From the NCBI GenBank assembly GCA_965116355.1, contig OZ220679.1:1118669-1182668 (forward strand): 64,000 bases of DNA, given 5' to 3'. The notes under the pieces were generated by a model that saw only the letters and a program-made list of their open reading frames with translations, did no database searches and was not told the DNA's origin. Source of the stretch: Dehalococcoidia bacterium. GTDB taxonomy: Bacteria > Chloroflexota > Dehalococcoidia > Lucifugimonadales > UBA1127. A program made the translations under genes and the position numbers. Below are positions 2,270 to 35,194 of the stretch, piece by piece; position 1 is the first letter of the stretch; every line of letters begins with the position of its first letter.

Positions 2270-2338
2270 ACGAGGGTCGCCCCTACGCGTTTGGAGGGGG
2301 TCGCGTTTGTCGGGGTTCCTGCCTTCGCAGGAACGACG
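2270..2338. repeat. REP-like elements (REP-C fragment + REP-B hairpin)
   Basis: TCGCCCCTACG fragment, then GGGGTTCCTGC-CTTC-GCAGGAACGACG hairpin (stem 2316..2322 / 2327..2333). The same units recur at 6997.., 11633.., 12891.. and 12981... Confidence 0.8.
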
Positions 2339-8508: not shown

Positions 8509-8898
8509 TCAACCCCGCCCCATGATGCGGCAGATGCTGTTGACGGTGCTGATGATGTGCTCCGGCTTGGCATCCGGATTGTTGAGAAGCGCGCGGAGGC
8601 GGACGCGGAGGACGCCGACCTCCGGGGCGAGGCCGCGAATCTCCATGGCTTCCTGCAGGTCTTGCTGTTCCTCCGGGGTCAAGTACTTGGCGTAGAAGCC
8701 GTGCTTGCGTGCGTTCTGGTTGCCGGGCTGGCCGCCGGAGTTTCTGCGTTCGGGTTCCTCCAGGGTTTCCTGCTCCAACTCATCTTCGAGGTCATCGAGG
8801 GCGTCGAGGGCCTTGGCTTTGCGGTAGTCCTGGTAGTTGTGGGCGGCGCGGATCATGTCGGTCATTTCCTTGAGGATGTCGGTCTGGGGCTCCTCCAT
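8509..8898 (-). CDS. small acidic/basic protein, possible phage small-terminase-like or DNA-binding protein (129 aa)
   Basis: ATG 8898 with AAGGAGG SD; the track start at 9063 runs through a repeat and the TcmP 3' end. MEEPQTDILKEM...GGQPGNQNARKHGFYAKYLTPEEQ... The GNxNAxKHG motif recalls N-termini of some phage small terminases, but this is a weak call. Confidence 0.55.
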   Translation of the reverse strand: MEEPQTDILKEMTDMIRAAHNYQDYRKAKALDALDDLEDELEQETLEEPERRNSGGQPGNQNARKHGFYAKYLTPEEQQDLQEAMEIRGLAPEVGVLRVRLRALLNNPDAKPEHIISTVNSICRIMGRG

Positions 8899-8950: not shown

Positions 8951-8978
8951 GGGATGGGGGAGGGGTTGGTGTCAGGGG
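8951..8978. repeat. 28-bp element GGGATGGGGGAGGGGTTGGTGTCAGGGG, copy 1 (copy 2 at 20089..20116)
   Basis: Exact 28/28 identity between the two copies. Each ends 13 nt from a TAnnnT -10-like hexamer on the minus strand (TACAGT 8937..8932; TACCCT 20075..20070). Confidence 0.85.
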
Positions 8979-8980
8979 GG

Positions 8981-9820
8981 TTACCAGTGCTTGAGGATGT
9001 GATCTGCGATGTTGATGGCAATGCGGGCGCCACGCGGGTTGCCTGCAGCAAAGAACAGCTCAAAAATCTCTACGTTCCGCGAGTTCCTGAATGTGCGACG
9101 CGTTGGAGCAACAGCGTGAAACGCGGATTCCAACCGTGCGCGATAGGCTTCCGCAATTTGCTTTGTCCCAGTTGAACGGCTTTGCCGTCGCTCACTGTCG
9201 AACATTGAGAGCTGTGGAGACTCGCTGTAATGACCATACCAGAAGGAACGGCCTCCAAATACTCTATCCAAGCGGCTCGCCAAAGCCGGGCTAGGCTCGC
9301 CATTTCTCCGCATCATGCGAGTAACTGCCATAAGAGGGAACAGAATCCAGCAGTCAATTTTCTTTGTGTCCGCGATGGCAGCTACCGTATCCCAAGACAC
9401 CTCTGTTGCGAACGGATCCAAAAACACAACAGCGCGATCATAAGGCCTCATATCGCGACAGAACCTTTGCACTTCGGCGTTCGCGTCACCTTGAACTACC
9501 TGAATCATTCGCTCAGGGAATTCACTTGCTAGCAGTCGCAAGTCCTCAACTCGGCTTCTATCCTTTTCAATGAATAGGAAGCGGTCAAATGGACGGTTGT
9601 CTATGCTGAGCGCAATTCTCGCAGAACCCGCGTGTACCTCTTGGAATTCTGCGTACTCTTGCGAGGCTTCAACATATGCGCCCGCACCAGCAAACCCGTC
9701 CACATAGGTCAACGTAAAGGGTTGATCCTTCATTACGGTGGTGTAGGCGTCAAGGTAACGTCTGAGGATTTCGAGCTTTTCCGATGTCCATTGGCCGCCA
9801 AACGATGGTACGTTAGTCAT
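8981..9820 (-). CDS. tcmP: three-Cys-motif partner protein TcmP-like (279 aa)
   Basis: MTNVPSFGGQWTSEKLEILRRYLDAYTTVM...LTYVDGFAGAGAY...GSARIALS...FLFIEKD...VVFLDPF matches my recollection of the TcmP family. Starts 2 nt after the DUF5131 stop. Lower G+C than the flanks. Confidence 0.8.
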   Translation of the reverse strand: MTNVPSFGGQWTSEKLEILRRYLDAYTTVMKDQPFTLTYVDGFAGAGAYVEASQEYAEFQEVHAGSARIALSIDNRPFDRFLFIEKDRSRVEDLRLLASEFPERMIQVVQGDANAEVQRFCRDMRPYDRAVVFLDPFATEVSWDTVAAIADTKKIDCWILFPLMAVTRMMRRNGEPSPALASRLDRVFGGRSFWYGHYSESPQLSMFDSERRQSRSTGTKQIAEAYRARLESAFHAVAPTRRTFRNSRNVEIFELFFAAGNPRGARIAINIADHILKHW

Positions 9821-10577
9821 GGTTGGCCGCTCTGTCCGGCATCTCGCGCCATGTTTCGCCGTCAACGACGGCTGCGGCTCCGCCACGCTTGTTTCGGGAT
9901 CCGCCAAGCTGCTTCAGGAAGAAGGCTACGCCCGCCTCTTGCGACTGGTCCCGGAGAAAGCGAACCCACTCCATGTCCATCGGGCGGGCTGCACGGCCGC
10001 TCTCGCCTCCAACGATCAGCCACTGCACGTCGCCGTTGTCGAGCCAGTGGCTCAGGTCCACCTGCCCGAGGAGAGGCTCAGCGGAGACGAAGCGGATGGG
10101 GGCGGGAAGGCGAGACAGAACCGTGATGCGCGGGGCGTACTTTTGGTTTTCGACAGACGTGCCAATCCACACATTCACGGGCCATTCGTCAGCAAAGGCG
10201 GACTTGTTTTCCTCCCACCATGCGACTGCTCGGCCTGGCCGCTTGGTCAGCACCTGGAAGACGTGCCCGCGGGACTCGGCGGCTTCTTGCATGACCTCAA
10301 AGGCGGCCGTCACGAATTCAAAGGGCACGTCATGGTGGAAGAGGTCAGACATGCTGTTGACGAAAACGTGCCGCGGCGTTCCCCAACGGAGCGGCACGTT
10401 CAGACGTTCCGGCAGCAGCCGTACGGTGCTCGGCTCACTTTCGTAGCCCGGCACGCCCATAGCGGTGAGTCGAGGGTAGAGGGCATACATGTAGCAGTGG
10501 TCGCAACCCGGTGACACGCGGGTGCAGCCGGTGACGGGATTCCAAGTCTCGTCCGTCCACTCGATGTTCGACGACAT
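9813..10577 (-). CDS. phage Gp37/Gp68 family (DUF5131) protein with C-x6-C-x2-C motif (254 aa)
   Basis: MSSNIEWTDETWNPVTGCTRVSPGCDHCYMY... is the hallmark N-terminus of the family. ATG 10577 has GGAG upstream; the track TTG start at 10592 is less likely. Confidence 0.9.
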   Translation of the reverse strand: MSSNIEWTDETWNPVTGCTRVSPGCDHCYMYALYPRLTAMGVPGYESEPSTVRLLPERLNVPLRWGTPRHVFVNSMSDLFHHDVPFEFVTAAFEVMQEAAESRGHVFQVLTKRPGRAVAWWEENKSAFADEWPVNVWIGTSVENQKYAPRITVLSRLPAPIRFVSAEPLLGQVDLSHWLDNGDVQWLIVGGESGRAARPMDMEWVRFLRDQSQEAGVAFFLKQLGGSRNKRGGAAAVVDGETWREMPDRAANHD

Positions 10578-10601
10578 CTGGTCACACTCCAATCAGTAAC
10601 A

Positions 10602-10637
10602 GAACGTATATTCTAATAAACAATCGTTCTCTGTCAA
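10602..10637 (-). promoter_or_regulatory. near-consensus promoter TTGACA-16-TAGAAT overlapped by two LexA(Cheo)-box-like sites
   Basis: Minus-strand TTGACA 10637..10632 and TAGAAT 10615..10610. GAACGATTGTTT (10629..10618) and GAATATACGTTC (10613..10602) are each one mismatch from GAAC-N4-GTTC. Confidence 0.5.
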
Positions 10638-11619: not shown

Positions 11620-11658
11620 GCCCCTCCCCTCTGGGTTCCCGCCTGCGCGGGAACGACG
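11583..11658. repeat. REP-A + REP-B elements between/overlapping the two permease genes
   Basis: CGCCCTTCGACAGGCTCAGGGTGAACGG (11583..11610); GGGTTCCCGC-CTGC-GCGGGAACGACG (11633..11658). Confidence 0.85.
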
Positions 11659-12810: not shown

Positions 12811-13006
12811 ACCCCCATCCCAACCCCGTATCAAGTACGGGGCAGGCTCTTCCCCCTCAAAGGGGGAAGGGGCCTCCTCCCCGCCCCTTTGGGTTCCCGC
12901 CTTCGCGGGAACGACGATGGTGGGAGCGGGACGGGCGATTCGCGAATCGCCCCTACGGGGGTGCGGGTTGGGAAGCGTCGGGGTTCCTGCCTTCGCAGGA
13001 ACGACG
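12811..13006. repeat. 200-bp array of four REP-like units (D, B, C, B) filling the SBP-permease intergenic region
   Basis: ACCCCCATCCCAACCCC..CTTCCCCCT-CAA-AGGGGGAAG (12811..12869), GGGTTCCCGC-CTTC-GCGGGAACGACG (12891..12916), GGGCGATTCGCGAATCGCCCCTACG (12933..12957), GGGTTCCTGC-CTTC-GCAGGAACGACG (12981..13006). Confidence 0.9.
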
Positions 13007-14834: not shown

Positions 14835-15068
14835 TTACTCCGCCAAGAGGCGTTCCAAACAGAGGGACACTTCTATGCCCAAATGGCCCAACTCGCCCAA
14901 TGCACGCTGGACGTCATCATAGACGACCGAGTCATCGAGGAATGCGACGTAGACTTCAGCATAGAGTTCGTCCTGGTGGTAGAACCATCCGTGGCCAAGC
15001 GCGTCCTGGGTTATAAAGCCGAACTGCTCGAAGCAGTCGATGACATCGCGCCTGCTAAGCAGCTTCAC
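14835..15068 (-). CDS. small protein, divergent HicA-like partner (77 aa)
   Basis: GTG 15068 overlaps the 3' end of the HicB-like gene by 14 nt. The N-terminus LSRRDVIDCFEQFGF...GHGWFYH loosely resembles the HicA layout. Lower G+C. Confidence 0.35.
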   Translation of the reverse strand: MKLLSRRDVIDCFEQFGFITQDALGHGWFYHQDELYAEVYVAFLDDSVVYDDVQRALGELGHLGIEVSLCLERLLAE

Positions 15069-15372
15069 TCAATTCCAATTCCTCAGTGAGTTGCACCCGC
15101 TTGCGCGTGCCGGACTCCTGTCTGGTGCGCCGACCGCTCTTTATATCGAACGCGACGCCCTGGCGGTGCAGGTAGGTCAAGAGACCTTCGACTCCCGCGC
15201 GCTCATGGCACCGGCGCACGGCCTCCGCCAACACGCGTTCGGCCTCCGCCCGTGCCTCCTGCTCGTCTTTCCCGTAGGTGAAGACTGGCATCTTCTCAAC
15301 GGTGGCGCACCAGTAGCCTTCCCGTTCCTCCACCTGAACGACAAATTCAACTCGTAGCTGCAATCGGTCCAC
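15055..15372 (-). CDS. HicB-family antitoxin-like protein (105 aa)
   Basis: FVVQVEEREGYWCATVEKMPVFTYGKDEQEARAEAERVLAEAV matches the HicB/UPF0150 N-domain pattern. GTG start with TAGGAGG SD. Confidence 0.6.
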   Translation of the reverse strand: MDRLQLRVEFVVQVEEREGYWCATVEKMPVFTYGKDEQEARAEAERVLAEAVRRCHERAGVEGLLTYLHRQGVAFDIKSGRRTRQESGTRKRVQLTEELELSEAA

Positions 15373-15535: not shown

Positions 15536-15754
15536 CTACCCGTACACGGCCAGCACCACCGCGTCGGAGGGGTTGGCGGCATCGAAGAAGAGGACGGCGC
15601 AGTGGCGGCCCTCGGTGACGTCGGCGGCGGGGATGTTGCGGGCTACGGGGACGGCTTCGAGCCAGGTGGCGAGGCTGCCGGTGATCTGGACGGTGGCGGT
15701 GTGGGCAGTCGCGTCAAAGGTGCGGACGGTGGCCTTCAGTATTTCCGGGGGCAT
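15536..15754 (-). CDS. small beta-rich protein (72 aa), last gene of the phage-like cluster
   Basis: ATG 15754 with AGGAGAG SD. MPPEILKATVRTFDATAHTATVQITGSLATWLEAVPVARNIPAADVTEGRHCAVLFFDAANPSDAVVLAVYG. The rest of the 531-aa track ORF is Arg/Pro junk. Confidence 0.5.
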   Translation of the reverse strand: MPPEILKATVRTFDATAHTATVQITGSLATWLEAVPVARNIPAADVTEGRHCAVLFFDAANPSDAVVLAVYG

Positions 15755-15794
15755 GGTCTCTCCTATCTGGGGACTGCTTTGTCTTGCGCCACGA

Positions 15795-15831
15795 ACCCCC
15801 ATCCTACCCTTCCCCCTGCGAGGGGGAAGGG
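15795..15831. repeat. REP-D element
   Basis: ACCCCCATCCTACC-CTTCCCCCT-GCG-AGGGGGAAGG. Same architecture as 12811..12869. Confidence 0.8.
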
Positions 15832-15837
15832 ACCTTG

Positions 15838-17820
15838 TTACAGGCCGGTCAGGGTGATCTTCTGCTGGTACTTGGGTGTGCCTGTGCGGCTGTAGTCGAG
15901 TTCGAGGGCGGATACGCGAAGGCGCTCGGCGGTGGGTGCGCCGGGCGTGTGGATTTCGACGACGTCGTGGAGCTCGAGGGCGCAGTTGGGTGGGGCCAGG
16001 AGCTCGCCGGCGCGAGCTTCGCGGCGGGTGCGAGCGAGGATGTCGGCGGCGCGGGCCTCGGCGTCGGCAGCCGTGCGCTGGTTGAGGTCGTTGAGTTGGA
16101 GGAGGCGCTCGCCGAGGAGGGGAAGGGCGGGCCAGTCGAGGGCCTCGCCGACGGCGTCGGCGGCGCCGAAGACCTGGACACGGGTGGCGTCGGGGGCGCC
16201 GGCGGCAAGGCGGACGCGGTGAACGGCGTGGTACGTGCCGAAGGCGTAGCCGGCGGCGTCCGTTGGCTGCGGGTTCGTGAGGCGGGCGATGCGGCCCCGG
16301 AAGTGGAGAAGGTCTGGGGCGAGGGACATGAGACGCCGGATGGCGGTGGCGCCGGACTCGCCGGGGTGGACGGTGAAGGCGGGACGGTGCGAGAGCATGG
16401 CCGCGCTGGGACTGGCGGCTTCGAGGCCGAGGCCGACGCGCTGGAGGATGAAGCCGAGGATGGAGGCAAGGGCGGCCTCGCCGCGAGCCCAGGCGAACTG
16501 ACGGCGGGCGCGCCAGGCGGCAAGGAGGGCCCAGCCGTCGCCGGCGTGGACGACGAGGCTGGCCTCGCCGCCGCCGTAGCGGTGCTCCCAGCCGGTGACC
16601 CAGAAGGCGGGGCCCGCCGAGGTCTCGACGCCGGAAGGGGTCTCGTAGCCGGGGCTGACGCGCAGCTCCGTGCCCTCGCGGATAGGGGCGCCGACGCTGC
16701 CGACAGCGTCGTAGCGGCCGTCGTCGTTGCGGAGGGCGAGGGTGAGCGCGGCGCCGCGAGGGGTCTCCCGCATGGTGAGCGAGAGGACGTCGGCGGAGAG
16801 GTCGCGGGACGTGGCGTCGAGGGCAGCGCGCCAGACGCCGTCGGGAGTGGCGAGCCAGAGGGAGTTTGCGTCGCCGGCAAGCGCGACGCCGTGGGGGGCG
16901 CCGGCCTCGAGCGGGACGGGGTCGGCCCAGGAGTTGGCGTCGAACGCCGTGCCGGCGAGGGTGTTGAACATGAGGGGGCGTTGGTAGCCGCCCGCGCCGG
17001 TGTAGCGCTCCACGACGGTCAGGCGGTCGACTTGTCCAAGTCGGGCAACCTCGGCGACGTGCAGGAAAGGCGCGTCGAAAGTGACGGCGGAGCCCGCGTC
17101 GGCGCGGGTGATCTCGCGGAGGGGCGACCACGCGCCGTCATAGGTGGCCGACCAGACGCGGTTGCGGCCGGCGGCGTCGACGCCGGTGACGGCGAGCCGC
17201 CACGCAATGTCGGCGTCGCAGGCAAGGCCGGTGACGCTCGTGAGGGAGTAGTCGTGGGCCGCGAGAGCGCTCCACGCTGCGCCGGTGCGCGTCGCGACGT
17301 GGAGGCGGCCATCGTCGCTCGCGAGGAAGAGGGCGGGCGTCCCGGAGGCGTCGAAGGCGGCGGCGAGGCGCACTACCGCGCCGCCGGCGAGGGTGGCGGC
17401 GACGCGGCGGGCTGCCCACGTGGCGCCGGAGTCGGCGCTCTCACGGACGCAGACGGCGCGGGGATCGGCGGGGTCGCGGAAGGCGACAAGGACCGTCGCG
17501 CCGTGGGCGCAGGCGGCGACGCTGCTGGCCGTCGCGGTGGTGTCGAGGCGCGTCCACGCCGAGAAGTCGCTCGATGGGCCGGGGGCGGCGACGCGTTGGA
17601 CGTAGAGGGCGCCGTCGGCCTCGGCGACGCGGGCGCGCACGAGGGAGCCGTCGGCGGGCATGGCGGCGGCGTGGTGGAAGGACGCCTCGTCGCCGACGTA
17701 CAGGCGGGCGAAGTGCGCCCGTGGGACGCCCGCGAGCATGTCGAGGGCCTCGACGCGGACGTGGGGGCGGCCGGAGGCGGCGGTCTGGGCGGTCAGGAGG
17801 GCGTTGGAGATGGCGCGCAT
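15838..17820 (-). CDS. phage tail/host-recognition-like protein with Asp-box (BNR) motif (660 aa)
   Basis: ATG 17820 (MRAISNALLTAQ...) lies 2 nt after the upstream stop. SADSGATW is an S-x-D-x-G-x-T-W Asp-box within a repetitive beta-rich N-half. The C-half has no recognised family. Sits in a phage structural context. Confidence 0.6.
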   Translation of the reverse strand: MRAISNALLTAQTAASGRPHVRVEALDMLAGVPRAHFARLYVGDEASFHHAAAMPADGSLVRARVAEADGALYVQRVAAPGPSSDFSAWTRLDTTATASSVAACAHGATVLVAFRDPADPRAVCVRESADSGATWAARRVAATLAGGAVVRLAAAFDASGTPALFLASDDGRLHVATRTGAAWSALAAHDYSLTSVTGLACDADIAWRLAVTGVDAAGRNRVWSATYDGAWSPLREITRADAGSAVTFDAPFLHVAEVARLGQVDRLTVVERYTGAGGYQRPLMFNTLAGTAFDANSWADPVPLEAGAPHGVALAGDANSLWLATPDGVWRAALDATSRDLSADVLSLTMRETPRGAALTLALRNDDGRYDAVGSVGAPIREGTELRVSPGYETPSGVETSAGPAFWVTGWEHRYGGGEASLVVHAGDGWALLAAWRARRQFAWARGEAALASILGFILQRVGLGLEAASPSAAMLSHRPAFTVHPGESGATAIRRLMSLAPDLLHFRGRIARLTNPQPTDAAGYAFGTYHAVHRVRLAAGAPDATRVQVFGAADAVGEALDWPALPLLGERLLQLNDLNQRTAADAEARAADILARTRREARAGELLAPPNCALELHDVVEIHTPGAPTAERLRVSALELDYSRTGTPKYQQKITLTGL

Positions 17821-17822
17821 GG

Positions 17823-18458
17823 CTAGGCCCCCCGGACCCGGAGGTGGCGCGGCGCGGGCTCGCCCTCGGCGTACATGCGGCGGACGCGGACGCCACGGCG
17901 GGAGGCGGCGCGGCCGAGGGCGAGCTGGAAGGCCTCGAGGCGCTCGTTGCCCCAGACGCGGTAGCGGCGGGCGGTGTCCTCGCCGCCAAGGTTGACGCGG
18001 TTGGCGGCGTAGCTGGCCCACGCGAGGGCGGCGTAGGCGGTGGCGCCCAGCGCGACGGCGTCCTCCAGGTGCTCCGGGACGGTGGAGGAGGCGGCGTCCA
18101 GGGTGTGGAGCTTTGTGTAGTAGACGCGGAGCTGTTCTCCGCCGGCGGGCGTCGCGTCGGACTGGAGGGTGAGGGAGGCGGCCCAGCGGCTGAAGGGGAC
18201 GAAGCAGGCGGGGTTTCGGCCGAGCGGGTACTCGACGGCCTCGACGTCGAGGAGGCCGGCGAGGGAGGTGAGCGTCACCTCGCGGCTGCCGGCGACGGTG
18301 GCCAGCGTGGCGACGGACTCGGCGGGGGCGACTCTGCTGAGGTCATGGACGGCGTGCCGGACGTGGCGGTCGATCTCGTCGTCGGACCAGCGCTCGGCGG
18401 CGGGGTCGGTGTCGCGCAGGTCGCGGCGGACGAGGGTCCGCATCTCGGCGATGTTCAT
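17823..18458 (-). CDS. phage head-tail connector/adaptor-like protein (211 aa)
   Basis: MNIAEMRTLVRRDLRDTDPAAERWSDDEIDRHVRHAVHDLS resembles gp6-like connector N-termini. Position is downstream of the capsid gene. TAGGAGC SD. Confidence 0.5.
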   Translation of the reverse strand: MNIAEMRTLVRRDLRDTDPAAERWSDDEIDRHVRHAVHDLSRVAPAESVATLATVAGSREVTLTSLAGLLDVEAVEYPLGRNPACFVPFSRWAASLTLQSDATPAGGEQLRVYYTKLHTLDAASSTVPEHLEDAVALGATAYAALAWASYAANRVNLGGEDTARRYRVWGNERLEAFQLALGRAASRRGVRVRRMYAEGEPAPRHLRVRGA

Positions 18459-18482
18459 GGCTGGCTCCTATCGGCGGCTTAG

Positions 18483-18511
18483 GCGCCCTTCGACCAACTC
18501 AGGTCGAGCGG
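18483..18511. repeat. REP-A-like element
   Basis: GCGCCCTTCGACCAACTCAGGTCGAGCGG. Confidence 0.7.
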
Positions 18512-18536
18512 TCGTGTCGCCCATCAATGCCGTATC

Positions 18537-18956
18537 ATGGACGGCGGGGGTGACGCTTTGGCCGCATTCATTGTTTTTGTTGTGGTGCTGTGGGCCGGGA
18601 CCATGGGGGCCACGCTGCTGCTTGCCCGGTTCCGGCTGGGGTCCGGCGAGGCGTCCGTCTGGGACCACGTCATCGTGCGCGGCGCGGCCTTGCTGACCGT
18701 GTCCATCGCCATGTGGACGCTGGCGTCGCTGGCGGGGCGGGTCATGGCGATCACGAGCCCGGCAGGCATGGTGCCGTACCTGTGGCTGGTGGCGGCGGTC
18801 CCGCTGGCGGCCCCGCCGCTCAGGAACAACGGCGCCACCCTGATTTCCTCCGAGCACTGGGTCTACCTCTCCATGCTGCTGACCGGCCTCGGCGGGTTTG
18901 CGCTGGCGGCCGTGATCATGGCCCGGGTCATCGCGGGCGGGGTGGAGCTGCAGTAG
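18537..18956 (+). CDS. predicted 4-TM membrane protein (139 aa), opposite strand inside the phage-like cluster
   Basis: Four hydrophobic segments and strong third-position G/C bias in this frame. The antisense ORFs are low-complexity. Confidence 0.5.
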   Translation: MDGGGDALAAFIVFVVVLWAGTMGATLLLARFRLGSGEASVWDHVIVRGAALLTVSIAMWTLASLAGRVMAITSPAGMVPYLWLVAAVPLAAPPLRNNGATLISSEHWVYLSMLLTGLGGFALAAVIMARVIAGGVELQ

Positions 18957-18990
18957 CTCCGCGGGCAGCCCGCACGGATCCCCTCCCCGG

Positions 18991-19113
18991 CGCCCTTCGA
19001 CAGGCTCAGGGCGAACGGATTTGGCGGCTCGTTCCCCAACTAGCGCCACGCGCCCGTTCATGCCCTTGGAGAACCTCAGGACAGGCTTCGAGTCCCCTCA
19101 GCACGAACGGGCG
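18991..19113. repeat. two REP-A elements downstream of the capsid gene
   Basis: CGCCCTTCGACAGGCTCAGGGCGAACGG (18991..19018); CGCCCGTTCATGC...CTCAGGACAGGCTTCGAG...GCACGAACGGGCG (19051..19113). Confidence 0.85.
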
Positions 19114-19125
19114 CGACCCGTGCGC

Positions 19126-20016
19126 CTAGTCACGCACTCCTGTGAGCTTGGCTAGCTTGAGAGTGCTGAAGCAGGCGATTGAGACGTACCACTTCACCCG
19201 GACCCGCGTGGCGTCCTTGCTTTCGAGACTGCCGACGCGCTCGGCGACGAGGCCGCCGGGGGCGGTGAGGCCGGCGACAGCGCCCTCGCCGAACTGGAGG
19301 GCGTAGATGGTGGAGGCGTCCGTCGACGAGCCGGCGCGGTTGTCGTCGGTGATGTGGTCGGAGACGCCGACGGGCACGCCGTCGTAGTAGTCGAGCATCA
19401 TGCCGAACTCGTTGCGATCGGAGACGAGGAGGCCGCTGCCGGCGCCGCGGGAGAGGGCGGTGAGCTTGCGGCGGGAGCGGCGGGACATGAGGAGCATGTG
19501 GGGCTTGCCGTCGATGACCTTGTCGATGAGCTCGTCCACCTTGTCGAGGGTGAGGGTGGCGCCGTTGGCGCCCATGGAGACGGTCTGGGCGGCGGTGGTC
19601 AGCTTGTCGATGCCGTCGAAGGACTTGGCGTCGGAGGAGGTGTCGCCGTTGACGAAGGTGTCCTCGAACTTGGCGCGGACGGCCTTGGCCTTGAGCTCGA
19701 CGACGGCGGCCTCGAGGTCCTGGACGTTGGAGCGGGTGGCGCGGAGGTAGTTGTCGACGTCGGCGTCGCCGCCGAGGATGGCGAGGGTGGCGGTGGCCTG
19801 GGTGAAGGTGGGGGTGGACTCGGCCCAGCCGTCACCGACGGTGTAGAAGGCGGCGGCGGGCGCGGTGTTCTCACGGTTGTACGTGAGGCCGTTGCCGACA
19901 ACCTCGATGAAGGGCAGGGCCTGGAGGACGGGGCTTTCCTTGACGATGGTCTCTATGACGCCGGTCAGGAGCATGTCGTTTGAGAGCTTCGCGCCCTCTG
20001 CCAGGGTGAGTGCCAT
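19126..20016 (-). CDS. HK97-fold phage major capsid protein (296 aa)
   Basis: LSNDMLLTGVIETIVKESPVLQALPFIEVVGNGLTYNRE...ATLAILGGDADVDNYL...FEDTFVNGDTSSDAKSFDGI... follows the Phage_capsid (HK97) pattern. GAGAGGAG SD. No delta/scaffold domain is apparent. Confidence 0.85.
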   Translation of the reverse strand: MALTLAEGAKLSNDMLLTGVIETIVKESPVLQALPFIEVVGNGLTYNRENTAPAAAFYTVGDGWAESTPTFTQATATLAILGGDADVDNYLRATRSNVQDLEAAVVELKAKAVRAKFEDTFVNGDTSSDAKSFDGIDKLTTAAQTVSMGANGATLTLDKVDELIDKVIDGKPHMLLMSRRSRRKLTALSRGAGSGLLVSDRNEFGMMLDYYDGVPVGVSDHITDDNRAGSSTDASTIYALQFGEGAVAGLTAPGGLVAERVGSLESKDATRVRVKWYVSIACFSTLKLAKLTGVRD

Positions 20017-20088
20017 GGGGACTCCTCTCCGCGGGCCGATCGGTGCGGCCCGACTTGTGTGATGCGGAGAGGGTAGAACGGGTGTGCT

Positions 20089-20116
20089 GGGATGGGGGAG
20101 GGGTTGGTGTCAGGGG
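20089..20116. repeat. 28-bp element, copy 2
   Basis: Identical to 8951..8978. Lies 73 nt upstream of the capsid ATG and 13 nt from TACCCT (20075..20070, minus strand). Confidence 0.85.
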
Positions 20117-20272
20117 TGGGGTTGCGGCGGACTCCTTACGGAACTGAAATGCTGTAATCCTACGACGCACTGGGGCAGCTTTGGTGCTATTGTTGAGACA
20201 TCAGCTTAGGCTTCAAGGTTGCAGCAGATGCGTAGCAAGAATAGCAGTCCAGATTCCACAGGAACGACTTGA

Positions 20273-21184
20273 ATGGACTTTACGAAACTCTTTGACGTGT
20301 TTTCGAGGCGCTCAGTGCTCAATGGCATCGACAGCCATCCTCTCACGCCACAATTCAAATACCGTTTCGCAAAGCTCTGCGCTGAGTACTTTTCCAACAA
20401 TGGCTTCATTGAAGAGTTTTGGTGGGAGATCAAAAGCAAGTTCGAATACTTGGAAGGCGGATCAATCGCTCAAGGGGGTAACACACTAGAAGTGGCTACA
20501 GGAGTGCTGGCATTTCTAGAACAGTGTGACGACAAGAAGTTCCTTGACTTTGTAGAGTTGGTCTTCAAGTTAGAGCACTTGCCTCCCGCCCTTATGGAAG
20601 AGCACCCCTTAGTCCGAAGCGTAAACCAATTCTTCGAACTGGATGGGCTGCCCTACGCCTTAACTGACTTCAGTTGGGAGGAGATTGAGGAGACTGAAGG
20701 CTGGTCTTCTGGCAAGAGTTATAGGTTATCCACTTATCCCCAAGTTGTCCTACGGGAGAGCGAGGTTGTCTATCAGAACGCAATTCTCCCATTGCTTACG
20801 CTCTTGCGCCAAGCTCATTTCTCAACGGCCAATGAGGAGTTCCTTAAGGGTCTTGCTGATTTTCGCAATGGTGACCACGAAGATTGCGTCGTTAAGTGTG
20901 TGAGCGCTTTCGAGAGTGTTCTGAAGGTGATTTGCCAGAGGAAGGGGTGGTCCTACAGTCAATCTGACACTGCCAAGGCTCTTGTGCCAAAAGTATTGGG
21001 TAAGACTTCGTTGGAGGAATTCTACAGGGAACCCTTGGTTCTAGTCGCAGACATAAGGAACCGTCAGAGCAGCGCTCACGGGGGTGGCGATCAGCCAAAG
21101 CGCGTCCCAAAGCACGTGGCCAACTATGTCATCAACTCCACGGCGGCTGCCATCTTGCTCTTGGTGCAAGAGGCCAATCTCTAG
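20273..21184 (+). CDS. AbiJ-like / STM4504-type protein: AbiJ N-terminal-like domain + C-terminal HEPN domain (303 aa)
   Basis: The C-terminus FSTANEEFLKGLADFRNGDHEDCVVKCVSAFESVLKVIC...IRNRQSSAHGGG contains an Rx4-6H HEPN motif. The N-terminus FSRRSVLNGIDSHPLTPQFKYRF is AbiJ-NTD-like. Clearly lower G+C. Confidence 0.7.
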   Translation: MDFTKLFDVFSRRSVLNGIDSHPLTPQFKYRFAKLCAEYFSNNGFIEEFWWEIKSKFEYLEGGSIAQGGNTLEVATGVLAFLEQCDDKKFLDFVELVFKLEHLPPALMEEHPLVRSVNQFFELDGLPYALTDFSWEEIEETEGWSSGKSYRLSTYPQVVLRESEVVYQNAILPLLTLLRQAHFSTANEEFLKGLADFRNGDHEDCVVKCVSAFESVLKVICQRKGWSYSQSDTAKALVPKVLGKTSLEEFYREPLVLVADIRNRQSSAHGGGDQPKRVPKHVANYVINSTAAAILLLVQEANL

Positions 21185-21320
21185 AACACGGACTATGGCC
21201 GCTCAAGAGTAGTGCTTTGTGCCCTTGCCAAGTCGTCAAGCTTACCTAGCACCTTAAGTGTTTCATCAGTCATGTTTGTTGATTCTTGATTCGACAGGCA
21301 GAGAGGAAGGCCCCGCCCCC

Positions 21321-26793: not shown

Positions 26794-28135
26794 CGAGGCG
26801 GTCGGCCCAACGAGTGGGCCGGTCGGCCCGGCTGGCGGGCCAGAGGGGCAGTTCCTCCCCAACCTGCTGCTCTTCGGCAGGCTGCTGCGTCGGGTGGGCC
26901 TCGACGTGCACGCGGGGCGAATGCTGGACGCGGTGCACGTGCTCGAGGACATCGGACTGCGGCGGCGGGGCGACGTGCACGCGGTGCTGCGCACGCTGCT
27001 GGTGCACCGCCGCGAGGACCTACCCGTCTTCGACGAGGCTTTCTCCGTCTTCTGGCGGCAGCGCAAGGACCAGACGTTCACCATGGACCTGCGCTCCATG
27101 GGCGAGCAGCGCCGCTACCGGTACGTCGAGGCGGGGCCGCCGCCGCTCGGGCAGCCCTCGGACGCCGTGGGCGGCGAGGACGACAGCTCGGAGGAGGGCG
27201 GCGACCGCATCGACATCACACGCACCTACAGCGCGCGCGAGGTGCTGCAGACCAAGGACTTTTCCGAATACACGCCGTCGGAGATGGCGCAGGCCCGGCT
27301 GCTGATGGCGTCGCTGGCGTGGAATCCGGGCACTCGGCGGTCGCGGCGGCTGGAGCGCGGAGACGGCCACGGCCTCGACCTTCGGCGGACGCTGCGGGAC
27401 AACGCGCGGTACGGCGGCGAGCTGCTCGAGCTGCGCCGGCGTCGTCGGAAGGAGAAGCCGCGCAAGCTGGTCGTCGTCTGCGACGTCAGCGGCTCCATGG
27501 AGCGCTACACGCGGATGCTGCTGCACTTCATCCACAGCCTGTACGGGGGTCTGAACGGGCAGGTGGAGGCCTTCCTCTTCGCGACGCGGCTGACGCGGGT
27601 CACCAAGCAGCTCCAGCACCGGGACATCGACCAGGCGGTGGGTGACGTGTCGAAGGCGGTGCCGGACTGGTCGGGCGGGACGCGCATCGGGGCGGCGCTG
27701 CGGGAGTTCAACTTCACGTGGGCGCGCCGGACGCTGGGGTGGGGGTCGATCGTGCTGGTCGTGTCCGACGGCTGGGACCGGGGCGAGCCGGAGCTGCTGG
27801 GGCGCGAGATGGAGCGGCTGCAGCGGAGTTGCCGGCGGCTGATCTGGCTGAGCCCGCTGGCCGGCGTCGAGGACTACGAGCCGCTGACGCGGGGGCTGCG
27901 CGCGGCGACGCCGTACGTCGACGATCTGCTGCCGGTGCACAACCTGGCGGCGCTGATGGACCTGGCGCGGCACCTGAACTCGCTGACGTCGGGCGCGCCG
28001 GAGCGGCGGCAGCGGCCCTCGCCTGCGGCGGACGAGGCAAGCGAGGAGGAGCCGTCGGCGCCGGTGCAACGCTCGTGGCACCGGGACGCGAACCCGACGT
28101 TCCGGCACCCGCTGTGGGGGCGGGGGGATCCCTAA
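26786..28135 (+). CDS. coxE: VWA domain protein (CoxE-like)
   Basis: MIDAS motif VVVCDVSGSM in the C-terminal VWA domain. Overlaps coxD by 8 nt. Confidence 0.85.
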   Translation: MASEAVGPTSGPVGPAGGPEGQFLPNLLLFGRLLRRVGLDVHAGRMLDAVHVLEDIGLRRRGDVHAVLRTLLVHRREDLPVFDEAFSVFWRQRKDQTFTMDLRSMGEQRRYRYVEAGPPPLGQPSDAVGGEDDSSEEGGDRIDITRTYSAREVLQTKDFSEYTPSEMAQARLLMASLAWNPGTRRSRRLERGDGHGLDLRRTLRDNARYGGELLELRRRRRKEKPRKLVVVCDVSGSMERYTRMLLHFIHSLYGGLNGQVEAFLFATRLTRVTKQLQHRDIDQAVGDVSKAVPDWSGGTRIGAALREFNFTWARRTLGWGSIVLVVSDGWDRGEPELLGREMERLQRSCRRLIWLSPLAGVEDYEPLTRGLRAATPYVDDLLPVHNLAALMDLARHLNSLTSGAPERRQRPSPAADEASEEEPSAPVQRSWHRDANPTFRHPLWGRGDP

Positions 28136-34823: not shown

Positions 34824-34898
34824 GCATTGGGACTGCTTACTATTGCAGAATTTTGGGAATATTATATAATAAACTGTATATGGGAAGGCTTACGGGAT

Positions 34899-35192
34899 TT
34901 GCGCGTGCTTTCAAAGAAGATCCTGCGGCTGTTCTGGGAGCAGCACAGGGAAGCCCAACAACCACTTCTCGCGTGGTATCGGGAAGTTGAACGCGCGGAC
35001 TGGTCTCTACCGGGCGAAGTGCTGGAGAGATTTCCGAGGGCAAGCATCGTAGGAACCGACAGGGTGGTATTCAGGATAAGCGGCGGAAGCTACCGAATCG
35101 TTGCGCGTGTGTTCTACCCAGGGCGTCGCGTGTACATTCGTTTTGTGGGAACACACAACGAATACGAGCGCATCAATGTGGAGGAGGTCTAG
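34899..35192 (+). CDS. higB: type II toxin HigB (RelE/ParE superfamily mRNA interferase)
   Basis: From TTG 34899: MRVLSKKILRLFWEQHREAQQPLLAWYREVERADWSLPGEVLERFPRASIVGTDRVVFRISGGSYRIVARVFYPGRRVYIRFVGTHNEYERINVEEV. This is collinear with HigB_toxin family members that begin MRVISKK. The track start at 34827 adds an unlikely extension. Confidence 0.85.
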   Translation: MRVLSKKILRLFWEQHREAQQPLLAWYREVERADWSLPGEVLERFPRASIVGTDRVVFRISGGSYRIVARVFYPGRRVYIRFVGTHNEYERINVEEV

Positions 35193-35194
35193 TG

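What the first reader, a model, noticed from the sequence alone, without database searches (positions are those of the whole stretch)
15536..20016. Host-adapted phage structural gene remnant: capsid + connector-like + Asp-box tail-like + 72-aa protein, without packaging, portal, integrase or lysis genes
The minus-strand series comprises an HK97-fold major capsid protein (19126..20016) and a gp6-like connector/adaptor candidate (17823..18458). A 660-aa protein with an SADSGATW Asp-box (15838..17820) follows, abutting the connector gene by 2 nt, and then a 72-aa beta-rich protein (15536..15754). Nothing in the window encodes a large terminase, portal, prohead protease, tape measure, integrase, repressor or lysin. 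Unlike the other accessory patches, this cluster has host-like G+C and third-position bias. It has also accumulated host REP elements at 15795, 18483, 18991 and 19051, and an opposite-strand membrane-protein gene lies between the capsid and connector genes. This pattern fits either a long-resident decaying prophage or a domesticated particle-forming module (GTA-like, tailocin-like or capsid-based compartment). The capsid gene retains an intact SD and the shared 28-bp upstream element, which argues against simple decay.
Basis: partly seen in the sequence, partly recalled or inferred. Interest (0 to 1): 0.65.

Follow-up and report, generated by a model that had tools for sequence, protein, structure and literature searches.

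The report
Domesticated phage capsid-and-tail gene set
Four phage-derived genes (capsid, head-to-tail adaptor, tail hub, small spike-like protein) have been inherited vertically and kept intact in many Dehalococcoidia (Chloroflexota) chromosomes; they are the reduced core of a roughly 10-kb phage-like particle gene cluster with an SOS-type promoter, so this is a candidate new gene-transfer-agent-like system and not a rotting prophage.

Summary
Window 15536-20016 (minus strand) encodes an HK97-type major capsid protein, an SU10/T7-type adaptor and a 660-aa protein. That protein is an Asp-box beta-propeller fused to a gp27/Mu-gp44/VgrG-type tail hub. A conserved 72-aa spike/plug-like protein follows. 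All four have host-like codon bias.

No portal, large terminase, scaffold or integrase lies in the 64 kb. I did find a small-terminase-like gene at 8509-8898 that carries the same exact 28-bp upstream element as the capsid gene.

The four genes recur, in order, in most of 80 loci fetched (121 species matched), all Chloroflexota. More distant members carry a fuller set: terS-terL-HTH-portal-scaffold-capsid-adaptor-hub-spike, about 10 kb, between housekeeping genes and without an integrase. One 14.9-kb circular relative does carry an integrase.

Loci with only the four genes form one clade. Their flanking genes are syntenic, dN/dS is 0.1-0.46, and the window keeps every family-invariant residue.

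The capsid/scaffold promoter carries an AGAAC-N4-GTTCT palindrome. The same box precedes a lexA gene. It is perfect in the window's closest syntenic relatives and has one mismatch in the window.

Best reading: an anciently domesticated, probably SOS-controlled particle module (GTA-like). Its packaging genes are unlinked or lost in this lineage. Function is untested.

The parts
20089..20116 (-). 28-bp element (minus-strand reading CCCCTGACACCAACCCCTCCCCCATCCC). It is the distal part of the capsid promoter region, holding the family-conserved TGACAC motif. It ends 73 nt upstream of the capsid ATG.
   Evidence: There is an exact second copy at 8951-8978; 0 matches are expected by chance. A diverged version (CCCTGaCAC-N3-CCCCTT) is conserved upstream of the capsid gene in L003-L007. 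The TGACA(C) motif recurs upstream of capsid/scaffold genes across the family.
20075..20088 (-). AGCACACCCGTTCT: a LexA(SOS)-type box, AGAAC-N4-GTTCT with one mismatch. It overlaps a -10-like TACCCT (20070-20075).
   Evidence: The box (at most 1 mismatch) lies within 160 nt upstream of 16/27 scaffold genes and 14/61 capsid genes, against a background of 0.007 per 160 nt. GAAC-N4-GTTC is perfect in L003-L007. The same box precedes a lexA gene in L043.
19126..20016 (-). Major capsid protein, 296 aa, HK97-fold family, with no delta domain.
   Evidence: PHROG 212 E=1.8e-66 and Pfam Phage_capsid E=8e-12. About 40% identity to phage capsid proteins. 62-96% identical across related loci. dN/dS 0.18-0.44. 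38/38 family-invariant residues are kept.
18537..18956 (+). 139-aa hydrophobic (membrane-type) ORF on the opposite strand, lying between the capsid and adaptor genes. It is lineage-specific and probably not part of the particle.
   Evidence: Third-position G+C is 0.92. It is conserved at the same position in L002-L010 at 31-96% identity and is absent from other clades. Hydrophobic stretches are present.
18472..18511 (.). REP-like host repeat between the membrane ORF and the adaptor start.
   Evidence: Repeat family D19, copies at 11571, 18472 and 18979. Pattern CCTGAGNNNNTCGAAGGGCG gives 6 hits against 0.13 expected.
18979..19110 (.). Two REP-like host repeats just downstream of the capsid stop codon.
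   Evidence: Family D19 copy at 18979-19018 and family D20 copy at 19073-19110.
17823..18458 (-). Head-to-tail adaptor, 211 aa, SU10/T7-gp11 type.
   Evidence: Pfam PF24175 E=2.7e-10, above the curated cut-off. PHROG 399 'structural protein' E=3.8e-6. 44-88% identical in related loci. dN/dS 0.07-0.42.
15838..17820 (-). 660-aa tail hub protein. The N-terminal ~310 aa form a beta-propeller (Asp-box SADSGATW at 17416-17439). The C-terminal ~340 aa have the gp27 / Mu gp44 / gpD / VgrG-type hub fold.
   Evidence: AlphaFold2 model with pLDDT 88 and pTM 0.82. Foldseek against PDB gives E=1e-16 to 1e-13, probability 1.0, to baseplate hubs of contractile injection systems, Mu gp44, VgrG and T4 gp27; the propeller matches lectin propellers at 5e-9. 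BFVD hits are 'tail protein / phage protein D' at E=1e-18. There are no Pfam, PHROG or phage tblastn hits. Homologues are confined to Chloroflexota.
15807..15831 (.). Palindromic REP-like element between the hub gene and the 72-aa gene.
   Evidence: CCCTTCCCCCTCGCAGGGGGAAGGG; a related copy lies at 12847; 0 expected by chance.
15536..15754 (-). 72-aa conserved beta-rich protein, probably the spike/plug domain that caps the hub. In other clades the same domain is the N-terminus of 350-420-aa fibre-like proteins.
   Evidence: Conserved in about 70 loci at 44-86% identity. Profile against PDB: best hit 4jiw_D, E=0.007, over its GS..V.i.G.PaAR motif. Weak Pfam hits to PF18352, Bbp16 and PAAR_motif, E=0.02-0.18, in single members. 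Long forms carry a GGGGG linker and a DDDHPQY fibre-like motif. The single-sequence AF2 model is unusable, pLDDT 49.
8509..8898 (-). Orphan small-terminase-like gene (129 aa) of the same element family. The second copy of the 28-bp element lies 52 nt upstream of its ATG.
   Evidence: 43% identity, E=8e-17, to the ORF immediately upstream of terL in the circular element L103/L104; HMM E=1e-13. Homologues sit directly upstream of terL in L084, L052, L055, L075 and L044. Three more paralogues lie on the same 2.59-Mb contig.
8951..8978 (-). Second exact copy of the 28-bp promoter element.

Best explanation
The four genes are the reduced head-and-tail core of an ancient phage-derived particle module. 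The module has become a resident, vertically inherited part of Dehalococcoidia (Chloroflexota) chromosomes.

In its full form (about 10 kb) the module reads terS - terL - small HTH regulator - portal - scaffold - capsid - (accessory) - adaptor - hub - spike. It encodes what would be needed to build a DNA-packaging capsid with a minimal short tail. That tail would be a dodecameric adaptor closed by a trimeric gp27-type hub bearing a beta-propeller, plugged by the small spike domain. The full form has no replication, integration or lysis genes of its own.

The scaffold/capsid operon is read from a conserved promoter whose -10 region is overlapped by a LexA-type SOS box. Expression is therefore predicted to be repressed normally and induced by DNA damage. 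This is the pattern of a GTA-like or PBSX-like domesticated element.

In the lineage of this window the terS-terL-portal-scaffold part is no longer linked to the capsid gene. The remaining four genes were nevertheless kept intact under purifying selection across many species. A terS-like gene with the same 28-bp promoter element sits 10 kb away. I infer that the module has been dispersed into a regulon, as happens visibly in sister clades, and that portal and TerL are most likely encoded elsewhere in the genome.

Shown: the identities of the proteins, the conservation, synteny and selection, the promoter motif and its enrichment, and the absence of the other genes from 64 kb.

Inferred: LexA control, particle assembly, the location of portal and TerL, and any DNA-transfer function.
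For: Protein identities.

Distribution: 121 GTDB species representatives matched and the 80 loci fetched are all Chloroflexota, many on Mb-size chromosomes.

Gene order: cap-ada-hub-p72 is conserved.

Fuller modules: they carry TerL (Terminase_6C 3e-8), portal (SPP1_portal 6e-21) and a coiled-coil scaffold. Examples sit compactly between housekeeping genes without an integrase, such as L108 next to rho and DAHP synthase, and L109.

Single origin of the reduced form: the four-gene-only loci form one clade in the hub tree.

Vertical inheritance: flanks fall into synteny blocks that agree with the tree. The window and L003-L007 all lie between the CO-dehydrogenase operon and an ABC transporter. 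Flank sharing is also seen among full-module loci.

Selection:
- NG86 dN/dS is 0.18-0.44 for the capsid, 0.07-0.42 for the adaptor, 0.31-0.46 for the hub and 0.15-0.45 for p72. Host neighbours range from 0.07 to 0.40.
- The capsid is 75-78% identical between the window and L008-L010, where a syntenic host M16 peptidase is only 54-57% identical.
- All family-invariant residues are kept in the window.
- Capsid conservation relative to hub divergence is as high in the four-gene clade as in the portal-linked clades.

Dispersal in sister clades:
- The portal lies 4-5 kb from the scaffold gene, with unrelated genes in between.
- The hub gene can be separated and inverted (L027, L057) or isolated with its own perfect box 28 nt upstream (L063).

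SOS box: enrichment; a perfect box in front of lexA in L043.

Shared promoter: the terS-like gene with the identical 28-bp element.
Against: - No portal, TerL or scaffold is present in 64 kb of the window, or within 6-10 kb of the capsid gene in about 25 related genomes. I could not search the rest of any of these genomes, so 'elsewhere' is only an inference.
- The adaptor is 10-14 percentage points less conserved, at equal hub divergence, in the four-gene clade than in the portal-linked clades. This would fit loss of its portal partner.
- The SOS-type box has one mismatch in the window and is more degraded in the closest relative L002. The -35 hexamer is poor.
- The window's terS-like protein lacks the C-terminal ~40 residues of module TerS proteins and belongs to a multi-copy orphan subfamily. 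It may have another role.
- A few related loci have frameshifts in the capsid or adaptor gene.
- NG86 dS is unreliable at a third-position G+C of about 0.95.
- There are no expression or particle data.
- Identifying the palindrome as a LexA site rests on one lexA-proximal box here, plus my recollection of the Gram-positive/Dehalococcoides LexA motif. I could not retrieve that paper.
Confidence: 0.6

Rival explanations
1. Exapted, portal-less remnant. Portal, terminase and scaffold were truly lost at the base of this clade. The capsid, adaptor, hub and spike proteins are kept for another job. One possibility is that they are subunits which co-assemble with, and poison or parasitise, infecting relatives of the ancestral mini-phage; that would be a defence or satellite-like role. 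Another is that they form a non-packaging shell-plus-spike structure.
For: Linked portal, TerL and scaffold are absent in every member of a large clade. Adaptor conservation is somewhat relaxed in that clade. Mobile relatives that could be targets or helpers exist: a 14,875-bp circular element with an integrase, and L084. The locus sits in a hot spot of defence and toxin-antitoxin genes: an AbiJ-like gene upstream in the window and VapBC-like genes in L005.
Against: An adaptor has no known role without a portal, yet it is kept intact with dN/dS of 0.07-0.42. Gene dispersal with retained promoters is directly seen in sister clades. A terS-like gene sharing the capsid promoter element is still present. 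No precedent is known to me for retaining this particular four-gene set without a portal.
Confidence: 0.22
2. A neutral, slowly decaying prophage remnant that merely has not yet been deleted.
For: The gene set is incomplete. REP elements and an opposite-strand gene have been inserted between the capsid and adaptor genes. Occasional frameshifts occur in relatives. The SOS-type box is degraded in the window.
Against: The same four ORFs are intact in at least 25 species whose hub proteins have diverged to about 42% identity, and the flanks are syntenic. dN/dS is well below 1. The capsid is more conserved than a neighbouring host peptidase. All invariant residues are kept. Codon usage is fully adapted to the host.
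Confidence: 0.05
3. Part of an active or recently integrated small temperate phage or capsid-forming satellite (cf-PICI-like) that can still excise and spread.
For: Related compact elements carry a tyrosine integrase. One is a circular 14.9-kb contig.
Against: The window has no integrase, att-like flanking repeats, portal or terminase. Composition is host-like. The chromosomal position is fixed across species.
Confidence: 0.02
4. An encapsulin-like protein nanocompartment, using the HK97 fold for cargo storage, that happens to lie next to tail genes.
For: The capsid gene has the HK97 fold and no linked portal. Its promoter suggests stress control.
Against: The protein matches phage capsid families, PHROG 212 at 2e-66, and no encapsulin family. 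In relatives it is co-inherited with an adaptor, hub, scaffold, portal and terminase. No cargo-type gene is adjacent.
Confidence: 0.03

Closest known systems
Gene transfer agents (RcGTA-type in Alphaproteobacteria; also BaGTA, VSH-1, Dd1, VTA); from my own knowledge
   Same: A phage-derived head-tail gene cluster fixed in the chromosome and inherited vertically under purifying selection. It has no integrase, replication or lysis module of its own. Genes can be dispersed over several loci, and control appears to lie with a host regulator. From memory, RcGTA is influenced by LexA.
   Different: The phylum is different (Chloroflexota) and the proteins are unrelated at sequence level. The predicted tail is short (adaptor + hub + spike), not a siphovirus-like tail. 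The full set is about 10 kb. In this window portal and TerL are not linked and may be missing. Packaging of host DNA is untested.
SU10 / T7-type podovirus tails: portal - adaptor - nozzle - needle (PMC9509320)
   Same: The adaptor family matches (PF24175). The gene order is capsid, adaptor, large tail protein with a beta-propeller, small terminal protein. There are no tube, sheath or tape-measure genes.
   Different: The position of the nozzle is taken by a protein whose C-terminal half has the trimeric gp27/gpD hub fold of long-tailed phages and contractile systems, not a hexameric T7-gp12/SU10-gp17 nozzle. The terminal protein has only 72 aa. The window has no fibres.
Baseplate hub plus central spike (T4 gp27-gp5, Mu gp44-gp45, P2 gpD-gpV, VgrG-PAAR)
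   Same: The C-terminal ~340 aa of the 660-aa protein match these hubs at Foldseek E=1e-16 to 1e-13. A small protein with a weak PAAR/spike-like signature follows.
   Different: There are no sheath, tube or baseplate wedge genes. The hub is fused to an N-terminal Asp-box propeller. The module is attached to a capsid-adaptor set, not to a contractile tail.
Domesticated defective prophages (the concept of Bobay et al. 2014; PBSX of Bacillus subtilis); from my own knowledge
   Same: Vertically inherited, incomplete phage gene sets under purifying selection. PBSX is SOS-inducible.
   Different: This set is much more reduced (4 linked genes here, about 13 in the full form). It is conserved across many species (121 GTDB species representatives, all Chloroflexota), not a few related species, and it has a different morphotype.
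Capsid-forming PICIs and other phage satellites; from my own knowledge
   Same: Small elements that encode their own capsid, portal, terminase subunits and connector proteins. The 14.9-kb circular relative with an integrase resembles them in size and content. Multiple orphan terS-like genes recall satellite TerS genes.
   Different: The window locus has no integrase and no att sites, and it is fixed at a syntenic site. It also encodes tail-tip proteins, which cf-PICIs lack.

Membership tests
HK97-fold phage major capsid protein | Significant match to curated capsid families over the full length | tested here: met
   PHROG 212 E=1.8e-66 over residues 1-295. Pfam Phage_capsid 45.6 bits (cut-off 24.2), SU10_MCP 33.1 bits (24.1), GP7 27.5 bits (27). 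About 40% identity to annotated capsid proteins in 274 phage records at 80% coverage or more.
SU10/T7-type head-to-tail adaptor (PF24175) | Score above the Pfam gathering threshold over the whole domain | tested here: met
   41.4 bits against 27; residues 1-189 match profile positions 1-190 of 194. The same family is precomputed for orthologues.
SU10/T7-type head-to-tail adaptor (PF24175) | Sequence-profile match to a solved adaptor structure | tested here: not met
   A profile of 20 orthologues against PDB sequences gave only spurious hits to RecA fusion constructs. No structure was predicted for this protein.
gp27 / gpD / Mu gp44 / VgrG baseplate hub | The hub fold: two tube-like barrels plus inserted domains | tested here: met
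   Foldseek probability 1.00, E=3.5e-16 to 1e-11, over about 340-350 aligned columns. TM-score normalised to the target is up to 0.73 (1wru, Mu gp44). BFVD hits to 'phage protein D / 43 kDa tail protein' at E=1e-18 to 1e-14.
gp27 / gpD / Mu gp44 / VgrG baseplate hub | Sequence membership in Pfam or PHROG hub families | tested here: not met
   No Pfam or PHROG family at E<=1. No tblastn match in 50,697 phage records.
PAAR / central-spike N-terminal domain (for the 72-aa protein) | Significant match to PAAR or spike-base families, or to their fold | tested here: inconclusive
   Best PDB profile hit is 4jiw_D at E=0.007 over one PAAR-like motif. Single members hit PF18352 at 0.02, Bbp16 at 0.024 and PAAR_motif at 0.18. 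The AF2 single-sequence model has pLDDT 49.
Gene transfer agent | Chromosomal phage-like structural cluster inherited vertically under purifying selection, without own integration or replication genes | tested here: met
Gene transfer agent | Complete packaging machinery (portal and large terminase) encoded by the host genome | tested here: not met
   Absent from the 64-kb window. Present in more distant family members. The rest of this genome could not be searched.
Gene transfer agent | Particles package random host DNA and transfer it | not testable with these tools
   This needs particle purification and sequencing, or virome read mapping.
Intact or recently integrated prophage | Integrase and att sites, lysogeny control, replication and lysis genes next to the structural genes | tested here: not met
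   No tyrosine recombinase of the family's type in the window (HMM built from the family's own integrases). Flanks are the CO-dehydrogenase operon and an ABC transporter, syntenic in six species. No phage-type genes among the other window ORFs sampled.
LexA (SOS) regulon | Operator matching the organism's LexA box in the promoter region | tested here: inconclusive
   The window has AGCAC-N4-GTTCT, one mismatch, overlapping a -10-like hexamer. Orthologous promoters in L003-L007 have a perfect GAAC-N4-GTTC. A perfect box lies 26 nt upstream of a lexA gene in L043. LexA binding was not tested. The published Dehalococcoides motif is cited from memory only (one search failed).
Tailocin / extracellular contractile injection system | Sheath, tube and baseplate wedge genes, and no capsid | tested here: not met
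   A capsid gene is present. No sheath, tube or tape-measure gene is present in the window or in full modules.
Encapsulin | Match to encapsulin shell families and an adjacent cargo gene | tested here: not met
   Only phage capsid families match. The neighbours are an adaptor and a hub.

The most novel reading that the evidence does not exclude
Dehalococcoidia carry a chromosomally fixed, LexA-controlled regulon for a minimal short-tailed capsid particle. This would be a previously undescribed GTA lineage in Chloroflexota. Its genes have been progressively scattered around the chromosome, each block keeping the same promoter/operator. In the window's lineage the multi-copy orphan terS-like genes, which share the capsid gene's 28-bp promoter element, would decide which host regions or islands are packaged.
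Probability: 0.3. Interest if true: 0.85.

Novelty: new variant of a known kind. Interest (0 to 1): 0.68.

Why it matters
Dehalococcoidia are abundant, mostly uncultured bacteria of subsurface, marine, soil and sponge habitats. Almost nothing is known about how they exchange genes.

A conserved, apparently SOS-inducible particle module that is fixed in their chromosomes would be a candidate route of gene transfer. If DNA is not packaged, it would be a new use of capsid and tail parts.

The module would also be one of the smallest tailed-particle gene sets known, at about 10 kb. Its tail design is unusual: an SU10/T7-type adaptor closed directly by a gp27-type hub.

The four-gene version in this window is a natural experiment. 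It asks which parts stay under selection once packaging genes are unlinked or lost. That question becomes directly testable once the complete genomes are searched and virome or transcriptome data are mapped.

Tried and rejected
- Exact look-ups of the window's capsid, hub and a terS paralogue found no record. The source genome therefore could not be fetched or named. The listing of cluster members gave no accessions.
- tblastn of the adaptor and the hub against 50,697 phage records found no match.
- I tried to detect a portal elsewhere in the window's genome by recognising its contig length (2,591,952 bp) among portal homologues. Only 120 of 4,219 hits are listed, and none came from the four-gene clade.
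- The single-sequence AlphaFold model of the 72-aa protein was too poor to use. Orthologues from loci may not be submitted to that tool.
- The adaptor profile against PDB gave only artefactual hits to RecA fusion constructs. The capsid protein against PDB sequences gave none.
- YN00 dN/dS timed out; NG86 was used instead.
- Literature searches for a GTA or a domesticated capsid cluster in Dehalococcoidia/Chloroflexi found nothing relevant. The Dehalococcoides LexA-box paper is not held.
- Rejected idea 1: the 28-bp element is an island end or att scar, because both copies adjoin low-GC inserts. Its core is conserved upstream of the capsid gene in relatives that carry different inserts, and a similar motif precedes an orphan terS-like gene in another genome.
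- Rejected idea 2: the 660-aa protein is a T7/SU10-type nozzle. The fold search points to a gp27-type hub.

Full report
**1. What is in the window**

The minus strand of 15536-20016 holds four ORFs exactly as described.

- The 296-aa product of 19126-20016 is a phage major capsid protein. It matches PHROG 212 at E=1.8e-66 and Pfam Phage_capsid, SU10_MCP and GP7 above their cut-offs. It is about 40% identical over its full length to capsid proteins of 285 phage records.
- The 211-aa product of 17823-18458 belongs to Pfam PF24175, the SU10 adaptor (E=2.7e-10, 41.4 bits against a cut-off of 27). In phage SU10 this protein forms the dodecamer between portal and nozzle and has the organisation of T7 gp11 (PMC9509320).
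- The 660-aa ORF 15838-17820 starts 2 nt after the adaptor stop. It has SADSGATW at residues 128-135.
- The 72-aa ORF is 15536-15754.

Third-position G+C is 0.88-0.96 for all four, like the neighbouring housekeeping genes and unlike the low-GC islands of the window. The opposite-strand hydrophobic ORF 18537-18956 is real and conserved in the nearest relatives.

**2. The two unknown proteins**

An AlphaFold2 model of the 660-aa protein, built with 25 homologues, has pLDDT 88 and pTM 0.82.

- Its C-terminal ~340 residues match baseplate hub proteins with Foldseek probability 1.0 and E=1e-16 to 1e-11. The matches include Mu gp44, prophage MuSo2 43-kDa tail protein, T4 gp27, VgrG, siphophage Tal, and the hubs of extracellular contractile injection systems, pyocin and diffocin.
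- Viral predicted structures named 'tail protein', 'phage protein D' and 'gpP' match at E=1e-18.
- The N-terminal ~310 residues form a beta-propeller that carries the Asp-box.
- It has no Pfam or PHROG family and no tblastn match in phage records.

The 72-aa protein is conserved in about 70 loci.

- Its profile weakly hits chain 4jiw_D (E=0.007) over a GS..V.i.G.PaAR motif. From memory, 4jiw is a PAAR spike-tip protein.
- Single members weakly hit spike-related Pfam families.
- In other clades the same domain is the N-terminus of 350-420-aa proteins with a glycine linker and a DDDHPQY fibre-like motif.

I read it as the spike/plug domain that caps the hub. This assignment is tentative, because the structure model failed.

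**3. Relatives**

Homologues of the hub protein are full-length and 36-82% identical. They are confined to Chloroflexota/Dehalococcoidia metagenome-assembled genomes, many of them complete chromosomes of 2-3.4 Mb.

- 121 GTDB species representatives have a hit, and 80 loci were fetched.
- In most of them capsid, adaptor, hub and p72 occur in that order.
- The capsid is strikingly conserved, 62-96% identical. It is about 76% identical where the hub is only about 43% identical.

Clustering all ORFs of 104 loci revealed further recurrent genes in the more distant members. Their identities come:

- a coiled-coil scaffold-like protein directly upstream of the capsid gene (31 loci);
- a portal (SPP1_portal E=6e-21);
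- a large terminase (Terminase_6C E=3e-8);
- a small protein directly upstream of terL, taken as terS;
- a small Cys-rich HTH regulator between terL and portal;
- two accessory proteins and the long p72 forms.

Two look-ups show the compact complete form, about 10 kb and 13-14 genes, sitting between housekeeping genes (rho, transaldolase, DAHP synthase, ybeY, acyl-CoA dehydrogenases) with no integrase.

A related IMG/VR contig of 15,019 bp has an exact 144-bp terminal repeat. It is therefore a circular or terminally redundant genome of 14,875 bp. It encodes integrase, HNH endonuclease, terS, terL, portal, scaffold, capsid, adaptor, hub and p72. So mobile mini-phage or satellite-like cousins exist.

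**4. The window's lineage is a reduced but maintained version**

- In a neighbour-joining tree of the hub protein, all loci that lack scaffold, portal and terL near the capsid gene form one large clade that includes the window.
- Flanking genes fall into synteny blocks congruent with that tree. The window and five other species (L003-L007) all have the cluster between the CO-dehydrogenase operon and an ABC transporter. L008-L010 share a downstream M16 peptidase. Two further blocks unite 8 and 5 species. This indicates vertical inheritance.
- NG86 dN/dS values are 0.18-0.44 (capsid), 0.07-0.42 (adaptor), 0.31-0.46 (hub) and 0.15-0.45 (p72). Neighbours give 0.08-0.17 for CoxL and 0.09-0.40 for the transporter genes and CoxG. 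All values are inflated by the extreme GC3, so the comparison with neighbours is what counts.
- Between the window and L008-L010 the capsid is 75-78% identical, while the syntenic host peptidase is 54-57% identical.
- The window keeps 38/38, 10/10, 17/17 and 2/2 family-invariant residues in the four proteins.
- At equal hub divergence the capsid is as conserved in this clade as in portal-linked clades. The adaptor is 10-14 points less conserved.
- A few relatives show single frameshifts. These could be MAG errors or sporadic decay.

Simple decay is therefore rejected.

**5. What else is, and is not, in the window**

HMMs built from the family's portal, TerL, scaffold and accessory proteins find nothing in 64 kb. 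No family-type integrase is present. The other ORFs sampled are host metabolism genes or defence islands.

There is, however, a 129-aa gene at 8509-8898 (minus strand). It is homologous to the ORF immediately upstream of terL in the circular element (43% identity, E=8e-17) and in L084, L052, L055, L075 and L044 (HMM E=1e-13). The same 2.59-Mb contig holds three further paralogues with an identical N-terminus. Orphan copies among host genes occur in other Chloroflexota.

**6. The 28-bp element and the promoter**

The element is exact at 20089-20116 and at 8951-8978. The first copy is 73 nt upstream of the capsid ATG. The second is 52 nt upstream of the terS-like ATG.

Aligning upstream regions shows that it is the distal half of a conserved promoter. 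Family-wide the promoter reads (G)TGACAC - N6/7 - (C)TTGACA - ~8 nt - AGAACatatGTTCT, overlapping a TAnnnT -10.

- The palindrome AGAAC-N4-GTTCT, with at most one mismatch, occurs within 160 nt upstream of 16/27 scaffold genes and 14/61 capsid genes. Background is 0.007 per 160 nt. 31 of the 69 such boxes in 1.54 Mb lie upstream of module genes.
- A perfect box also lies 28 nt upstream of an isolated hub gene (L063).
- It precedes the HTH regulator that precedes portal (L072, L075, L077).
- It lies 26 nt upstream of a bona fide lexA gene, with LexA_DNA_bind and Peptidase_S24 domains, in L043.
- GAAC-N4-GTTC is, from my own knowledge, the LexA box of Gram-positive bacteria and of Dehalococcoides. 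I could not retrieve that paper.

The orthologous capsid promoters in L003-L007 carry a perfect GAAC-N4-GTTC. The window has AGCAC-ACCC-GTTCT at 20075-20088, one mismatch, with a weak -35. L002 is more degraded.

A second one-mismatch box lies 22 nt upstream of the DUF5131 gene. That gene heads the DUF5131 - methyltransferase-like - terS-like block.

**7. Interpretation**

The most economical account is an anciently domesticated phage-derived particle module of Dehalococcoidia. It is predicted to be SOS-controlled, and its genes tend to be scattered while keeping their promoter.

Scattering is visible in sister clades:

- the portal is separated from the scaffold gene by 4-5 kb of unrelated genes;
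- the hub gene is inverted or isolated.

In the window's clade the capsid-adaptor-hub-spike block lost linkage to terS-terL-portal-scaffold. Continued selection on all four genes, including an adaptor whose only known partner is a portal, and the terS-like gene sharing the promoter element, make me favour 'portal and TerL elsewhere' over 'lost'. I rate this at about 2:1. It is an inference I could not test, and the somewhat relaxed adaptor leaves the portal-less exaptation open.

The predicted particle has a capsid, a portal, a 12-mer adaptor, a trimeric pseudo-hexameric hub with outward propellers and a small plug. That is a short tail without tube, sheath or tape measure. It combines a podovirus-type adaptor with a hub otherwise typical of long-tailed phages and contractile systems.

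**8. Novelty**

Domesticated prophages and GTAs are known kinds. I found no description of this module or of any GTA-like element in Dehalococcoidia in the held literature.

I class it as a new variant of a known kind. It is interesting for four reasons:

- its breadth (at least 121 species);
- its small size and odd tail design;
- its predicted SOS control;
- the portal-unlinked four-gene form.

Function remains untested.

Noticed in passing
window 8509-8898 (-), plus three paralogues elsewhere on the same 2.59-Mb contig (P0243-P0245): Multi-copy orphan terS-like family. The paralogues are about 53% identical overall but share an identical 36-aa N-terminus (MEEPQTDILKEMTDMIRAAHNYQDYRKAKALDALDD) and a GGQPGNQNARKHGFY motif. 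Orphan copies among host genes also occur in other Chloroflexota (L105, L106). The L106 copy has CCCCTGACACCACCCCC about 75 nt upstream.
   Followed up: partly
window 10601-10614 and 8981-10592 (-): An AGAATATACGTTCT box (one mismatch to AGAAC-N4-GTTCT) lies 22 nt upstream of a DUF5131 ('Gp37/Gp68') gene (9813-10592). A methyltransferase-like gene (8981-9907), the 28-bp element and the terS-like gene follow. In L003 a homologous DUF5131 + methyltransferase pair sits directly upstream of the capsid gene instead.
   Followed up: partly
window 20117-21250; L003 5300-7300; L005 5300-7450: The gap between coxG and the capsid gene is a hot spot for variable accessory genes. The window has a low-GC AbiJ-like/DUF7014 gene (20273-21184, +). 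L003 has DUF5131 + methyltransferase. L005 has a PIN-toxin (VapC-like) gene with two antitoxin-like genes and an unknown 344-aa gene.
   Followed up: partly
window 18537-18956 (+): A 139-aa hydrophobic ORF with host-like codon bias lies between the capsid and adaptor genes on the opposite strand. It is conserved in the same place in L002-L010 (31-96% identity). In other clades that position is occupied by an unrelated same-strand 132-aa gene.
   Followed up: partly
window 14835-15372 (-): Two small overlapping ORFs (77 and 105 aa) lie directly downstream of the 72-aa gene. They are conserved in L003, L004 and L061 (82-92% identity). The larger one looks HicB-like by eye, but neither has a significant Pfam hit. 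They may be a toxin-antitoxin pair.
   Followed up: no
window 28132-31657 (-) and 34827-36460 (+): Further low-GC islands. One holds a 678-aa N6-methylase/HSDR_N restriction-modification fusion protein with an unknown 498-aa partner. The other holds a HigB-type toxin followed by a 422-aa protein with a Peptidase_M78 (ImmA/IrrE-type) domain.
   Followed up: partly
L103 + L104 (IMG/VR contig 3300029267_002955): A 15,019-bp contig with an exact 144-bp terminal direct repeat, hence a 14,875-bp circular or terminally redundant genome. It encodes integrase, HNH endonuclease, terS, terL, portal, scaffold, capsid, adaptor, hub and p72, with no recognisable replication or lysis genes. It is a very small tailed phage or a capsid-forming satellite of Chloroflexota.
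   Followed up: partly
L072 1484-1756, L075 3678-3959, L077 545-823, and eight more loci: A 90-aa Cys-rich protein with a C-terminal HTH (HTH_23/HTH_7, Mor-like) is encoded between terL and portal in full modules. In three loci it is preceded by a perfect or near-perfect AGAAC-N4-GTTCT box. It is a candidate activator of the module and is absent from the window.
   Followed up: partly
L010, L017, L050, L056 (capsid); L002, L059 (adaptor); L035: Single frameshifts split the capsid or adaptor reading frame in six related loci. L035 lacks the N-terminal half of the capsid gene. These could be MAG assembly errors or sporadic decay.
   Followed up: no
window 2309-2338, 11629-11658, 12887-12916, 12977-13006: Another REP-like family (GGGTTCCyGCCTkCGCrGGAACGACG, a hairpin) clusters around the ABC-transporter genes, in addition to the CCTGAG...TCGAAGGGCG family.
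   Followed up: no
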